Source: Hormiphora californensis (taxonomy: Eukaryota; Animalia; Ctenophora). From it: 64,000 bases of DNA. Location: contig CM035362.1 in assembly GCA_020137815.1 (NCBI GenBank), positions 1,488,001-1,552,000 on the forward strand, given 5' to 3'. The position numbers were made by a program, and so were the translations under genes. The notes under the pieces are model-generated. The model had not been told where the DNA came from. It ran no database searches and saw nothing but the letters and a program-made list of their open reading frames with translations. Positions 1 through 50,700 of this stretch are shown piece by piece (positions within the stretch are counted from its first letter, which is position 1; every line of letters begins with the position of its first letter).

Positions 1-3000
1 AATTCTTAAGAAATAAATCAAATCTCTCTTTCAGGTCCAGGAGGCTCTGCACATAGGCTATCGTGTTGCTGATGTCGCCCTCGCTATCAACCAATGTCTT
101 CCCACACTCCCCAATGTACACTGTGTGTGGGTGGGAGAGGGTGGGTAGGGGGTGGGAGAGGGTGGGTTAGGGGGTGGGAGAGGGTGGGTTAGGGGGTGGG
201 AGAGGGTGGGTTAGGGGGTGGGAGAGGGTGGGTTAGGGGGTGGGAGAGGGTGGGTTAGCGTGAGGAGGCAGACCCCCCCAATGTATACTGTGGGTGTTGT
301 GTGATTTGAGGGTCGGTACCAGACACAATCTTGTCAAACAGGCGGGAATGGGCAAAACAGACACCATTCCAACCCCCCCAAAAGTCTGAACAATTCGTGA
401 CCTACCTTTCATGGCATTGCACATGCAGGATAGTCCATTTTCAACGCGTGCAAGTAGCCCATACATACACCTCAGATCCTCTTGTTTGTCGTTTCGGAGC
501 ATGTATACCACACCCGAGTTCTCCATCTGAAAGAAATGATAATTTTAGGGAGATTGTAACATTATCATGTTAGGGAGATTATAATAACATGAGAAATAAG
601 AGTTTTCGTGAAATCACCTAACTTCAAAATCGTTTCACACATTTACGAATCATTACTTTCTGAACTTAAGTATGATATTTAATTACTACCCTGGCACTCA
701 TTAAGTATTGGTTCCCCGATGCTAACCTCAACAATAGTCTTCATGTGGACACTAATTAGTTCCCGTTCAACAACACTAGTTATAGGTCCCTCACTGCTAC
801 AATCTAGATAGTGCTTAGCCCGCTCGGCCTCCTCTCGGATTCTCGCCTCCACTTTCTTGACGTACACACTGGCACAGTTCTCAGACAGGAACTGTTGACT
901 TTCCATCTGGGGCGAGTAGTAGTTAAAATAGCCACGCTGACCCGGCGAAAAGGGACCATATTTGGGCATATAATGACGTCATCATATTACCAAATATGGT
1001 CACACAAACAGGCCATCGTAAAGTGACGATATAACGGGGCCGATATAAGGTGGAATAGGACATTTCCAAGTTAACACACAAGTGTAACATTGTTATGTTC
1101 TTAGTTCTAACCCTCATTTACATAGAAACAGGGTCGAACAATGCAAGAGGAACACCGTATACAGCTCAAACCCAGGAACCGACCGACACAAGAAAACAAC
1201 CAATCAGAACTCGTTATTTAGGTCACGTGACTGGTTATCAACCAATCAGGGACCAATATTTCCTGATTCGGCCGGTTACAGCCCCGTTACAGCTCAAACC
1301 GTACCTTGAAGAATTCTCCAGATACTTCTAAGAAGGGTTGTTCAAAGTTCTCCTCGTAGACAGTGCGAGTCTTAATACCCAGTGCCATTAACATCTCGCA
1401 CGTGGCCTTCACAGCTCCCCTATAATGGGTTAGGGGTTATATAGAAAGATAACAATTAATGTGCGGTATTATATTAGGGGTGTTATAGAAAGGAGCATTC
1501 GAGAAATGGAACTCTCGGGTTTTTTATCTGACAGATTCCTTCTCTTTATTCAATGAAACACCCCACATGACGTTGTATCGCTCACCCCGTACTCTTCGCA
1601 CCGATGCGAAGAGAACGGTCTTATATGAGACAAGATTGAAGACTCTCCATAACTATGATAACATGCTCGGTACACAGTGCCGGCTGTATACATTTTGTGT
1701 ACATTACGCGCGCACTTTAACAGTGCTGACGGTGCGCGCATGAAACTTTACATGCATCTCGCACACCATGTTTCTCTAGCCCTCCCAGTATATTCTGTAG
1801 ACCCCGTGTTACACACAGTTACACACGAGATGGTAAAGAAGGACTCGTTGTGGAAAGTGTGACATAAAATAAAGGGAGGGGTAGATAAAGCGAAAATGAA
1901 AGACAAAGAGAGAAAAAGAGAGAAAATAGGGAAAAGAAACTACATAAAAACAGCTAGTATATGATGTATTATACCTATCGACAATTTCTCCTCTTCTCTC
2001 CTTCGATACCATATCCAGTAGAGTGTTAGTAAGATGTGATTTAATAGGGGCGTGGTTCACTACCTGGAACAATCAAACACTTATTTCCAAAAAACTTAGC
2101 GAACAGTGTTTTGGGTTTTTTATTAGATAAAATCATAACTTTCTTTTGCATTAAGGAATATTATAAAGTCTCCAGTAAATTATATATGGTGCTTGATTAC
2201 TCATAATCATAATTAGTAAATATACAAATTACAATCTCGCTATAATTAGTAAATATATCTTACCAGCTCTTTGAATAGCTTGAGACCCAAATCTTGAACT
2301 TCGTCGACCTTGTTGTTTTTCACATAAACCCGGTCCTAATAATTATTTGAAGATATGTCACCCAAAACTGGGGAAATTGTGATATTCATGAATTTTTGAC
2401 GTGTGCACCACATGTGATAGGCGCACAAAACAAATCCAGACGTGAGATAGCTAGGGCGGGGGTGATAACTTCAAAAAGTGCGACTTAATATAATATGGTC
2501 ATTATAATTGGGACAAGCCTAAAGAGTGTAGTTATTGAATTCAGCGAATAGTAATACCACCACCGTAACAACATAACGATGCGTCATTAAAATTAGTTTT
2601 GGCTTGAGACCAGAGATTCACAAATTAGTAAGGTCTTCACTTACTAAGCTCACACACACTTGTCTAACTTTTACTCTATTCCCTATCCTCCTCTCTCTTT
2701 CTTTTACCATCATCAGAATCTCAGCTCTCTGTCTCTCTGTGTGATGTATCTCTTTCTCCCTCTGCAAATCTCTCTCTCACACACAGGACATTATAAAACT
2801 ATATCTCTCTCTATCTCTCTTTATCTCTCTATCTCTCTTTATCTCTCTCTCTCTCTCTCTCTCTCTCTCTCTCTCTCTCTCTCTCTCTCTCTCTCTCTCT
2901 CTCTCTCTCTCTCTCTCTCTCTCTCTCTTCTCTCTCTCTTTTCTATCTCTCTGCTTCTCTTTTTTCTATGCATTCCCGTTATGTGTGACCTCATACATGT

Positions 3001-47700: not shown

Positions 47701-50700
47701 ACCGACCGACACAAGTAAACAACCAATCAGAACTCGTTATTTAGGTCACGTGACTGGTTATCAGCCAATCAGGGACCAGCATTTCCTGATTCGGTTGGTT
47801 CCTGGGTTCGATAATATTTTCATGTATATGTTTTATCCCCCTCCAGGTAAATACAGTCGGACACCGATGTACCGGGATACTAAGGGGAGAGGCGTTTGCC
47901 CGGTAAATCGGGGAACCCAGTATATCGGGGCCTGACTGTAGAACCAATCGTGGTATAAAAATTTGGGAGCATTTTTTGGCACTTCGCCAGTCTGGGTACA
48001 AGTTCAAAGTTTGCAGTGCTAACTGCTAATTTATATCACGTTTAAATCATGACGTCCTTTTGGCCGACTCCATCTCATGACACTCCAAGCTGCAGCGACT
48101 ATTGTAGAACTCAAACAATAACCTCCCTCAATTTGAGGGTTACAAGACCTTATCACATGGCCATTATTTCTCTCACCTCTTCAGCTCACCCGTTTACAGT
48201 GCTAAATTATTAGTTCGCTGGAAAAATTTTGCCAACCTTTCAGAGAGAAATATTTTCTTATCAGCTAAAATGCTCAGCCAATAAGACCTTGGGAAATCTC
48301 GTCTTTAGGTTATATTCGCATATTTTATAAAAATACAGAGTTATTTATTGAGTTATTGAATTAGCATCTCACTCCGGCTACAAAGAATTTCTTATCTGTC
48401 TTTAGTGGGTATATGCAGCAGTAAACTCGTGAGGACGCTATCATTATTCGAGAATTTGTTATTTTGTGGCTGTACAGATCCATCGATATGTTTTCTCGTC
48501 TCAGTCTGATATATGTATACCTAACGTCCTAACAACCTTTCTTTTGCTTTCTTTTTTGCAAATGTACCGATCTTACTCTCTTTAGTAAAAGTAATGATCT
48601 CGCTCAGCTCTCTTTAGTAAAAGTAATGATCTCGCTCAGCTCTCTTTAGTAAAATTAACGATCTCACTTTGCTCTCTTTAGTAAAAGTAACCATCTCACT
48701 TTGCTCTCTTTAGTAAAAGTAATGATCTCGCTCAGCTCTCTTTAGTAAAAGTAATGATCCCGCTCAGCTCTCTTTAGTAAAATTAACGATCTCACTTTGC
48801 TCTCTTTAGTAAAAGTAACCATCTCACTTTGCTCTCTTTAGTAAAAGTAACGATCTCACTTTGCGGTTGTGGGGCGAACTATGATGTTGTGTATCCTAGT
48901 GACGATCCATCTTGTGACTGTACGATCAGCGATATCAACCTTACCAGGCCCGTTGCCACCAGAAACTACAGCTGAACCAACACTAAATAACTCGAATTAT
49001 GGTGAGTTGTTTTCAAAGGATAATAATAGGGTATGTTAAAGTGAGAGTGGACCGAATCAGAATTGGAAAAGTTTGTTGTAGGTAGTAGAGATTAGCTTTC
49101 TGAGCATTTTGCGTTTTTGCCGCTCAAAATCGACCCACCCATCACTGAGATATTTTTGTTATGTTGGGAGAACTCCTGTTTAATCAGTATGTATAAAACA
49201 GATTAGAAACAATAGTGATGTTTTACTAATACATTCTGAATATAAGCAGTGAGGTTGACATGTCCATGCACAGAAGCAGGGCAATGCAAGCCAGCATATT
49301 AAAAGAATGTGTTAGTAAAACACAAGGATTGTTTCTATCCTGTTTCATAAATATTGATCTAGCAGGAATTCTCCCAACATAACAAAAATATCTCAGTGAT
49401 GAGTGGATCGATTTTGAGCGGCAAAAACGCAAAATGCTCAGAAACCTAATCTCTACTACCTACAAAAAACGTGTCCAATTCTGATCCGGTCCACTCTCAC
49501 TTTAACTTGTGCCACCCGAAATTTGGGTTACTGACACTCCTTCACTTTGCATTGAATCCAAAAATGACCTTTAAGTTTATTGTAGATCTCATTAAGATCA
49601 TACGAAAACTTGAAGGTCATGTTTTGATTGGATGCACAAAAAGGGTGGTGCACGACATTGGCACGTGCTGATCTAAGCGCTCCTAGTACCCAGTGGTAAC
49701 AATATTATAAAGTTTCAGTGACATGGACGGATGTCGATAAAAAACAACGACCAATCTCATGGGACCTAAAAGATAGGAGCTTTTCAATACTAACTAAAAT
49801 TAATGGAGACGTGATACTCCATCTGAGCAACGAGGGCAGGTCCTATTCAGAGCGGCTTGATATATGCCTCCACCGTAGCCCATTTGCATACAGTTTGGGA
49901 GACTGCATATCGGGCTCGGCCTATCCACGGCCTATCCTCGACGAACTCGTTATTTGGACAATCAGAAGGAACGAAACCCATCTTTCAATTTCTTGCGATG
50001 AACAGGAGATGGTGCATGTTTCCCTCTCAGGGACAGGCTGTATAAATTATGAAATATCGGCGGTGACTTTTGATAGGAACGATACAGCATCGATAAGTTA
50101 TGGACCGACAATGCCTTTTAGAGGTACAGTTAGACCCCAATTTACCGGGAAGCTTCGGGCAAAAGGGGTTTTGCCCGGTAAATCGGGGTGTTGGTAGATC
50201 GGTGTCCGACTGTAAAGTTTAAATTCTACATATACAGTCGGATCCCGATTTAGTGGCCCCCGATTTAGTGGCACCCCGATTTAGTGGCAGGATAATTTTC
50301 CCCCGATATAGGAAATTAACAGCATTTGACCCCGATTTAGTGGACACCCCGATTTAGTGGACAAAACCCTTTCCGAGGATGCCACTAAATTGGGGTCCGA
50401 CTGTAATAATAGGTGTTCTGACAAAAAAAAGCGATTAGCATTTAAATTCTACACCAATAAACTGCATTTTCAAGGCCAATAGTCATAGTAATTAGTATAC
50501 TTGCAAGCTATTGGAGTAGGATCCGACATTCTTTGAGTTGAGTTATAACGGGTGACAACTAAAAATCTGGACATTTTTCTATAAGCTCTAGCGCCGGTCC
50601 CGTTTGAGATACAGCTACGGACCAGTGATAGAACGATTTTTCAGACAATTTTGAATCAGAATAACACAACGGGAAAGACTTAAAAGTTCATTTTCATTGC

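What the first reader, a model, noticed from the sequence alone, without database searches (positions are those of the whole stretch)
121..48863. Recurrent 'splice-junction satellites': intronic tandem arrays built from the host gene's own splice signals
Seen: in five unrelated genes, arrays with unrelated sequences and unit sizes (16, 22, 31, 32, 32, 49, 52 bp, plus ~50-bp and 21-bp single duplications) copy the local exon-intron junction or branch/polypyrimidine tract. In the 52-, 49- and 32-bp (41164) arrays only the exon-proximal site preserves the ORF. Several units contain AG|GT, which is both the recursive-splicing motif and the substrate of the tandem-duplication model of intron gain. 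Inference: either a mutational process amplifies splice junctions (template switching or rolling-circle-type copying linked to transcription/splicing), or this spliceosome tolerates up to ~60 near-identical decoys through strict proximal choice or recursive removal. I do not know of a description of this as a genome-wide pattern, but I cannot search the literature.
Basis: partly seen in the sequence, partly recalled or inferred. Interest (0 to 1): 0.88.

Follow-up and report, generated by a model that had tools for sequence, protein, structure and literature searches.

The report
Comb-jelly splice-junction "mirage" minisatellites
In a comb-jelly genome, four introns hold head-to-tail copies of their own exon edge and splice signal, a repeat type already known from lancelets ("mirages") and a few human genes, and likely harmless because splicing is predicted to use only the copy next to the exon.

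Summary
Partly confirmed, and a known kind. The window is ctenophore DNA. Four arrays copy their own exon-intron junction: 52 bp x8 (CUL3 donor), 31 bp x~58 (CUL3 acceptor, diverged, split by an LTR element), 49 bp x16 (ORMDL acceptor), 32 bp x8 (DNAAF8-like acceptor); there is also one single 17-bp copy. That is three genes, not five. Every decoy tested gives a premature stop. The 16-bp array does not copy a junction; the 22- and 50-bp repeats copy only intron-end sequence; the 32-bp array at 48576 is unverified. The one array laid on public contigs is present in two samples. Junction excess is modest and post hoc (P 0.002-0.12 by null). Recursive removal and intron gain are not supported. 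No RNA was available, so site use is inferred. This matches amphioxus 'mirages' and the human F7/CBS splice-site VNTRs; this scan has noted it before in at least 8 other genomes. My searches found no ctenophore case. One detail is worth testing: the DNAAF8-like acceptor appears to draw its branch point from exon sequence in the preceding unit, which could lock the array in.

The parts
1..11897 (-). Cullin-3 gene, 5' part; exons 11897-11838, 10593-10512, 4833-4718, 3727-3614, 2335-2264, 2063-1975, 1419-1305, 906-727, 526-406, 120-<1
   Evidence: tblastn and spliced model collinear with homologues
3241..3658 (-). 52-bp x8 donor mirage: 43 nt exon end + gtaggttca; real donor after 3614, 7 identical decoys (3562...3250)
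   Evidence: all decoys give a premature stop
4874..5637 (-). 31-bp acceptor-derived array, exon-proximal block (24.5 units), starts 41 nt from the real acceptor at 4833
   Evidence: 0 of 20,000 shuffles; intermediate unit
5636..9073 (+). LTR element inserted into the 31-bp array; two LTRs identical over 298 bp, TTAG target duplication, zinc-knuckle ORF 5893-6432
   Evidence: sequence
9074..10215 (-). 31-bp array, distal block (33.6 units) ending in inverted units
129..258 (-). 22-bp x6 array of CTAAC + pyrimidine tract, 9 nt from the CUL3 intron-9 acceptor; no AG, no exon sequence
276..292 (-). single 17-bp copy (16 of 17 identical) of the CUL3 intron-9 acceptor junction; decoy AG at 287
10857..11832 (-). 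11-bp x88 array starting 6 nt after the CUL3 intron-1 donor; not a splice-signal copy (counter-example)
17382..23988 (+). ORMDL gene; exons 17382-17440, 18244-18358, 23604-23755, 23896-(~23990)
   Evidence: Pfam PF04061, model
17276..17377 (+). 50-bp CT-rich duplicate ending 4 nt before the AG in front of the ORMDL ATG (likely trans-splice or UTR acceptor; unverified)
22855..23631 (+). 49-bp x16 acceptor mirage: 21 nt intron end + 28 nt exon start; real acceptor at 23604, 15 decoys of 11.8-13.3 bits
34241..34311 (+). 16-bp x4.4 array 13 nt after a predicted donor of a Cys-rich gene; not a junction copy
38775..59844 (-). DNAAF8-like / NDK-domain gene, 28 exons modelled
   Evidence: homologues in Bolinopsis microptera and Mnemiopsis leidyi, 73% on one exon
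41164..41423 (-). 32-bp x8 acceptor mirage: CTACCAG + 25 nt exon start holding CTAAC; real acceptor at 41188; outermost acceptor (41420) scores 0.6 bits
   Evidence: units present in contigs of 4 runs, 2 samples
48576..48864 (+). 32-bp x9 array (128-bp higher-order unit) with acceptor-like TTTAG, ending 17 nt before the likely ATG (48881) of a nested opposite-strand gene; junction origin unverified

Best explanation
These are ordinary minisatellites of the 'mirage' kind: four arrays are built from the gene's own exon-intron junction, likely seeded by a local duplication during DNA replication or repair and then expanded by unequal exchange, and likely tolerated because the spliceosome is predicted to use only the copy touching the exon. 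Shown: unit origin from the local junction; loss of the reading frame with every decoy; presence of the 32-bp units in two samples; an LTR insertion into, and inverted units at the end of, the 31-bp array. Inferred: seeding by slippage or template switching; turnover with homogenisation of units; proximal choice by 5'-to-3' scanning for donors and by cross-exon definition for acceptors; removal of rare errors by nonsense-mediated decay; a modest excess at exon edges because arrays there are sheltered from large deletions or because repair between divergent alleles fails where conserved exon meets variable intron.
For: Own junction ranks first of 78 for 4 units. Proteins are collinear with homologues only when the proximal site is used. 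Units carry shared variants, a 128-bp higher-order period, an intermediate unit and inverted copies, as in minisatellite turnover. Array units occur in contigs of X1, X2 (sample S1) and X5, X6 (sample S2, another study, about 4% different on long contigs), and summed depth over the array is far above the flanks, most in S2 (depth is no copy number). Listed arrays make up 8.6% of the window; TRF marks 13% of the Hormiphora genome (PMC8527503 passage), so ctenophores are rich in tandem repeats generally. Same anatomy, both donor and acceptor side, with normal splicing and length variation, in amphioxus (PMC3087553 section 16; PMC3902484 passages); proximal donor use shown with 50 constructs for human F7 (PMC1557585 abstract and passages).
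Against: Site use was not observed in RNA of this species. Three of the four arrays are on the acceptor side, where first-come scanning would predict the far (wrong) copy, and decoys score as well as the real site (13.3 vs 13.3; 10.6 vs 10.6 bits), so proximal choice needs exon definition, untested in ctenophores. In human IFI6 (6-16) and CBS some decoys are used (PMC1557585 introduction), so decoys need not be silent. The excess among high-copy arrays (4 of 7 vs 0.68) is larger than a simple neutral null gives, and its cause is not shown. Only 1 of the 4 arrays was laid on public data; S1 may be the source of the window.
Confidence: 0.7

Rival explanations
1. No junction bias at all: a repeat-rich, intron-dense genome puts some arrays on junctions by chance, and the window was picked because several coincide.
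Against: High-copy arrays: 4 of 7 vs 0.68 expected, P=0.002; 7 of 15 arrays within 15 nt of a site vs 2.7, P=0.009.
Confidence: 0.15
2. A splicing- or transcription-coupled copying process (R-loop or spliceosome-stalled template switch, or small circles) amplifies splice junctions specifically.
For: All four verified units include the GT or AG with flanking exon; CUL3 has three junction copies in 9 introns.
Against: Arrays lacking splice signals (11 bp x88, 16 bp) sit just as close to donors; 1 of 27 DNAAF8-like introns has a junction array; units copy unspliced genomic junctions, none copies an exon-exon junction (units).
Confidence: 0.08
3. The arrays are functional: recursive splice sites, a regulated unproductive-splicing dial, or introns in the making.
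For: Two of three acceptor units read AG|GT; the 52-bp unit holds a possible in-frame 27-nt micro-exon (cag|VIKDVFMYM|gtagg).
Against: Regenerated donors score below all 37 training donors; AG|GT follows 8 of 39 ordinary acceptors; units are shorter than the shortest intron; each intron has a unique far end.
Confidence: 0.04
4. Assembly artefact.
For: 41410-41660 is not covered at 90% likeness by X1 or X2, and one ORF nearby ends at a likely one-base slip, so the window sequence is not error-free or differs from S1.
Against: Unit-to-unit contigs in four runs of two studies; patterned unit variants, an LTR insertion with target duplication and an evolutionary intermediate unit.
Confidence: 0.03

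Closest known systems
Amphioxus 'mirage' minisatellites (Adh3, globins BflGb6 and BflGb9, troponin C, PGBD5). Seen: PMC3087553 abstract, passages and section 16 whole; PMC3902484 passages. The original Adh3 paper (Canestro 2002, PMC117041) was not held and is known only through these citations.
   Same: Tandem units made of exon edge plus splice signal, on donor or acceptor side, 10-160 bp, several per gene or region, homogenised interior with divergent boundary units, length variation, proposed link to intron gain.
   Different: Host is a ctenophore; copy numbers here reach about 58; one array holds an LTR insertion; normal splicing is shown by RT-PCR there and only inferred here.
Human splice-donor VNTRs: F7 intron 7 (37 bp), CBS intron 13 (31 bp), IFI6/6-16 intron 2, LMNB2 (100 bp), PDGF intron 4 (81 bp). 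Seen: PMC1557585 abstract and passages; the other four genes only as summarised in its introduction.
   Same: First unit spans the exon-intron border, identical pseudo-sites follow, the exon-proximal one is used (F7, LMNB2, PDGF). The CUL3 52-bp array has this exact layout.
   Different: Those are donor arrays, explained by 5'-to-3' scanning; three of four arrays here are acceptor arrays, which that model does not explain. Density here is about four in 64 kb.
Internal tandem repeats at exon-intron boundaries of primate duplicated genes and the Rogers model of intron gain. Seen: PMC2812944 abstract and passages.
   Same: Minisatellites of about 30 bp at exon borders, with AG/GT proto-splice sites.
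   Different: There the repeat can be spliced out as a new intron; here arrays sit in introns with unique far ends and no intron made wholly of repeat was found among 39.

Membership tests
Mirage / splice-junction minisatellite | Tandem unit spans an exon-intron boundary of the host gene | tested here: met
   52, 49, 32 (41164) and, diverged, 31-bp units rank their own junction first of 78. Not met for the 16-, 11-, 22-bp arrays; open for 48576.
Mirage / splice-junction minisatellite | Extra copies lie in the intron and carry intact splice signals | tested here: met
   Decoy scores equal or near the real site: 6.6/6.6, 13.3/13.3, 10.6/10.6, 6.3/8.3 bits.
Mirage / splice-junction minisatellite | mRNA is spliced normally at the exon-proximal site | not testable with these tools
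   No RNA run of this species was listed; inferred from reading frame and collinearity.
Mirage / splice-junction minisatellite | Length varies between alleles or individuals | tested here: inconclusive
   Depth over the 32-bp array differs greatly between S1 and S2, but contig depth is no copy number and no contig ties the deep S2 units to this locus by 31 letters on both sides.
Mirage / splice-junction minisatellite | Locus-specific unit, not a dispersed element | tested here: inconclusive
   No hit outside the home locus within the window for 11 of 12 units; no whole genome was held.
Recursive splice sites | AG|GT regenerates a usable donor | tested here: not met
   3.0, -7.1, 1.0 bits vs 4.8-11.8 for 37 real donors; small matrix, no RNA.
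Intron gain by tandem duplication (Rogers) | Intron begins at one unit's GT and ends at another's AG | tested here: not met
   All four introns have a unique far end; orthologous intron positions were not compared.

The most novel reading that the evidence does not exclude
Mirages arise across animals, now including a non-bilaterian, from repair errors where conserved exons meet highly polymorphic introns, and acceptor arrays can become locked in: in the DNAAF8-like intron the only branch-point motifs near the real acceptor (CTAAC at -24 and -56) are exon sequence from earlier units, while the outermost, ancestral acceptor has decayed, so the array could no longer shrink to one copy. Acceptor mirages would then be natural proof of cross-exon definition in ctenophores and a ratchet for intron growth.
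Probability: 0.2. Interest if true: 0.6.

Novelty: new member of a known kind. Interest (0 to 1): 0.27.

Why it matters
As it stands: a clean new example that extends a little-known repeat type to ctenophores, and a trap for gene annotation and read mapping. If RNA confirms strict use of the last of 8-16 identical acceptors, it gives a ready test of exon definition in an early-branching animal with short introns (median 200 nt here). If a genome-wide excess holds and follows allele divergence across species, it would address the open question of how mirages arise, which PMC3087553 calls unclear.

Tried and rejected
No whole genome was held, so the genome-wide test could not be run. No RNA holder listed. 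The one guessed RNA run (X7) gave 5 short, mostly under-90% pieces; its 9 loose letters at 41516 read into the next exon but are too few to tell copies apart; not used as evidence. The first read-laying (35000-44400) was dominated by a dispersed element at 40338-40651. No homologue for the nested gene (0 of 266 candidates). No complete frame-consistent model for the Cys-rich gene (33.3-38 kb) or the nested gene came out of automatic snapping; their exon edges are by eye and were used only in the null. A relic search over 78 junctions gave three borderline hits (ORMDL i1, DNAAF8-like i1, CUL3 i8; scores 20-23, under the control maximum 24), rejected. An 18-nt likeness of the 48576 unit to 62545 seen by eye did not pass the blastn cut-off. 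The 21/29-bp repeat at 42233 has acceptor-like AGs but is not a copy of its junction. Literature: ten searches; none returned a ctenophore mirage or a genome-wide analysis; five-/six-term searches returned nothing, so this is weak evidence of absence, and subscription papers and supplements were not seen. PMC117041 and PMC306954 were not held.
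Full report
Setting. The window is eukaryotic, about 42% GC, with no whole genome on hand. One exon next to the 41164 array finds only two homologues, from the ctenophores Bolinopsis microptera and Mnemiopsis leidyi (73% identity), so the host is a ctenophore; the species was not determined. 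Three genes could be modelled against outside evidence: cullin-3 on the minus strand (11897 to the window start), ORMDL on the plus strand and a 28-exon DNAAF8-like/NDK-domain gene on the minus strand (59844-38775). They give 39 GT-AG introns (67-7250 nt, median 200) and 78 junctions. A Cys-rich gene (33.3-38 kb) and a nested plus-strand gene (48.9-54.6 kb) were placed by eye only.

Checking the observation. TRF finds all arrays named. I aligned an interior unit of 12 arrays to all 78 junctions. Four rank their own junction first: the 52-bp array (43 nt of CUL3 exon 4 plus 9 nt of intron; score 74), the 49-bp array (ORMDL intron-2 end plus exon start; 65), the 32-bp array at 41164 (74) and the 31-bp array (26; next best 21; 0 of 20,000 shuffles). 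The 31-mer has drifted from the exon (GTGGTCTAAGTT to GTGACCTCTAAGTT), and one unit preserves the step between. Its two blocks are one array split by an LTR element whose LTRs are identical over 298 bp, with a TTAG target duplication; its far end folds back in inverted units. A single 17-bp acceptor copy sits upstream of the 22-bp array. The 16-bp array is 13 nt from a donor but holds no splice site. The 22-bp array is branch-point-like and pyrimidine-rich but has no AG. The 50-bp duplicate is low-complexity sequence before the ORMDL start. The 48576 array has modest acceptor-like sites before a likely start codon and may copy a trans-splice or UTR acceptor (trans-splicing is common in Hormiphora; PMC8527503 passages), which cannot be shown here.

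Reading frame. Swapping in each decoy gave a premature stop in 7 of 7 (52 bp), 59 of 59 (31 bp), 15 of 15 (49 bp), 7 of 7 (32 bp) and 1 of 1 (single copy) cases. With the proximal sites CUL3 has no gap against its homologue at any array-bearing intron. Decoys score as well as the real site under a matrix from 33 other introns, apart from the 31-mer (6.3 vs 8.3 bits).

More than chance? From 107 TRF rows I kept 15 arrays, dropping microsatellites, repeats inside transposons, in-frame exonic repeats and periods under 15 other than the 11-mer. On the window collapsed to unique non-coding plus exonic DNA (43,640 nt, 124 exon edges), 4 span or derive from a junction against 1.46 expected (P=0.047); among 7 with five or more copies, 4 against 0.68 (P=0.002); 7 of 15 lie within 15 nt of a site against 2.7 (P=0.009). 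Harsher nulls weaken this: P=0.12, 0.049, 0.023 for 100-, 150-, 200-bp introns; without the 31-mer P=0.12 (14 arrays) or 0.03 (6 high-copy arrays). Only 5 of 78 junctions have a copy at or above the best control score. The window was chosen for the pattern, so these values are optimistic.

Real or artefact? Six DNA runs from two studies hold the region. Laid on 40900-42400, units of the 32-bp array appear in contigs of X1 and X2 (sample S1, possibly the source of the window) and X5 and X6 (sample S2, about 4% different on long contigs, e.g. 23 other letters over 511). Summed depth in the array bins peaks at 281 against 7-49 in covered flanking bins in X1, 3218 against 95-394 in X2, 11,297 against up to 325 in X5 and 117,644 against 137-534 in X6. 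The tool warns that this is no copy number, and no contig firmly ties the deep S2 units to this locus; it does show that the repeat is not peculiar to this assembly and suggests a much longer array in S2. Against a perfect match: 41410-41660 is uncovered at 90% in S1 (covered at 85% with 16 other letters and 19 gap letters).

How it likely works. A short segment across the junction is duplicated in place (inferred; the 52-bp unit has a 2-nt CA overlap at its ends, too short to prove a mechanism), then grows by ordinary minisatellite turnover (shared variants, a 128-bp higher-order period at 48576, divergent boundary units). Selection keeps only arrays in which the exon-proximal site still wins. 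For donors this is the scanning shown for human F7 (PMC1557585). For acceptors it needs cross-exon definition (inferred). Recursive removal is unlikely: regenerated donors score 3.0, -7.1 and 1.0 bits, under all 37 real donors, and 8 of 39 ordinary acceptors also read AG|GT. Arrays with no splice signal sit equally close to donors, which favours a position effect at exon edges (shelter from deletion, or repair failing at the edge of allele homology) over a splicing-coupled copier; neither was tested.

One detail beyond the published descriptions I read. In most verified introns with a branch-point-like motif it lies about 17-31 nt before the exon (motif YTRAY recalled). In DNAAF8-like intron 20 the only such motifs in the last 60 nt (CTAAC at -24 and -56) come from the exon-derived part of earlier units, and the outermost acceptor, which would close a 90-nt ancestral intron, scores 0.6 bits against a training minimum of 5.2. 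The duplication may thus have built the working 3' splice site out of exon sequence and made at least two units necessary. The ORMDL array shows no such decay (outermost site 13.2 bits), so this is not general.

Comparison with what is known. Tandem copies of exon-intron borders were named 'mirages' in amphioxus Adh3 and described for globins, troponin C and PGBD5, on both donor and acceptor sides, with normal mRNA, length variation between haplotypes and an intron-gain model (PMC3087553 section 16; PMC3902484 passages). Human donor-side cases are F7, CBS, IFI6, LMNB2 and PDGF (PMC1557585 introduction). I found these papers before consulting the scan's notes. The scan lists 67 similar findings in at least 8 other genomes, none with the word ctenophore; these are unchecked AI notes and are not counted as support. 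Ten literature searches found no ctenophore case and no genome-wide analysis, within the limits of the library.

Verdict. Real, partly overstated, and a new member of a known kind. Interest 0.27; the lock-in and exon-edge reading (probability 0.2) would deserve about 0.6.

Noticed in passing
window 5636-9073: Very recent LTR element (LTRs identical over 298 bp, TTAG target duplication) with a zinc-knuckle ORF and no long pol-like ORF seen; inserted inside the 31-bp array.
   Followed up: partly
window 103-120 (-): The CUL3 exon next to the 22-bp array begins K-V-Y-I-G-E-C where three close homologues have K-G-Y-I-R-E-C and all 8 homologues checked keep the R; the decoy copy at 287 shares the change.
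   Followed up: partly
window 18400-22345 and 45240-46835: Two large palindromic (foldback) elements inside introns of ORMDL and the DNAAF8-like gene; further inverted-repeat elements near 49.1-49.5, 50.5-51.3, 52.3-53.5 and 57.0-58.4 kb.
   Followed up: no
window 48881-54615 (+): Nested opposite-strand gene inside DNAAF8-like intron 5, with a signal-peptide-like start and Cys-containing extracellular-looking exons; no Pfam hit, no homologue.
   Followed up: partly
window 35310-36260 (-): Intronless secreted-looking ORF nested in an intron of the Cys-rich gene; contig depth several times the flanks suggests a multi-copy family.
   Followed up: no
window 33337-38030 (+): Gene of repeated Cys-x2-Cys modules (weak Zn_ribbon_3CxxC_2 hit); exon 5-6 junction could not be fitted to one frame.
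   Followed up: partly
window 14449-16180 (+): STPR-domain gene (weak PF21107) whose long exon is broken near 14950 by a likely one-base slip; assembly error or pseudogene.
   Followed up: no
window 24820-26340 and 26808-27855 (+): Two related membrane-protein genes ending in PPSY motifs; the second has an in-frame 48-bp repeat.
   Followed up: no
window 1174-1300, 10380-10505, 16830-16935, 33800-33908, 47697-47805: Copies of one ~130-bp palindromic miniature element, several within a few bases of splice sites (e.g. right after the CUL3 exon-2 donor).
   Followed up: no
window 34223-34258 (+): The 16-bp unit resembles the last exon bases (ACATG) joined to the reverse complement of the first intron bases, a possible template-switch product.
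   Followed up: no
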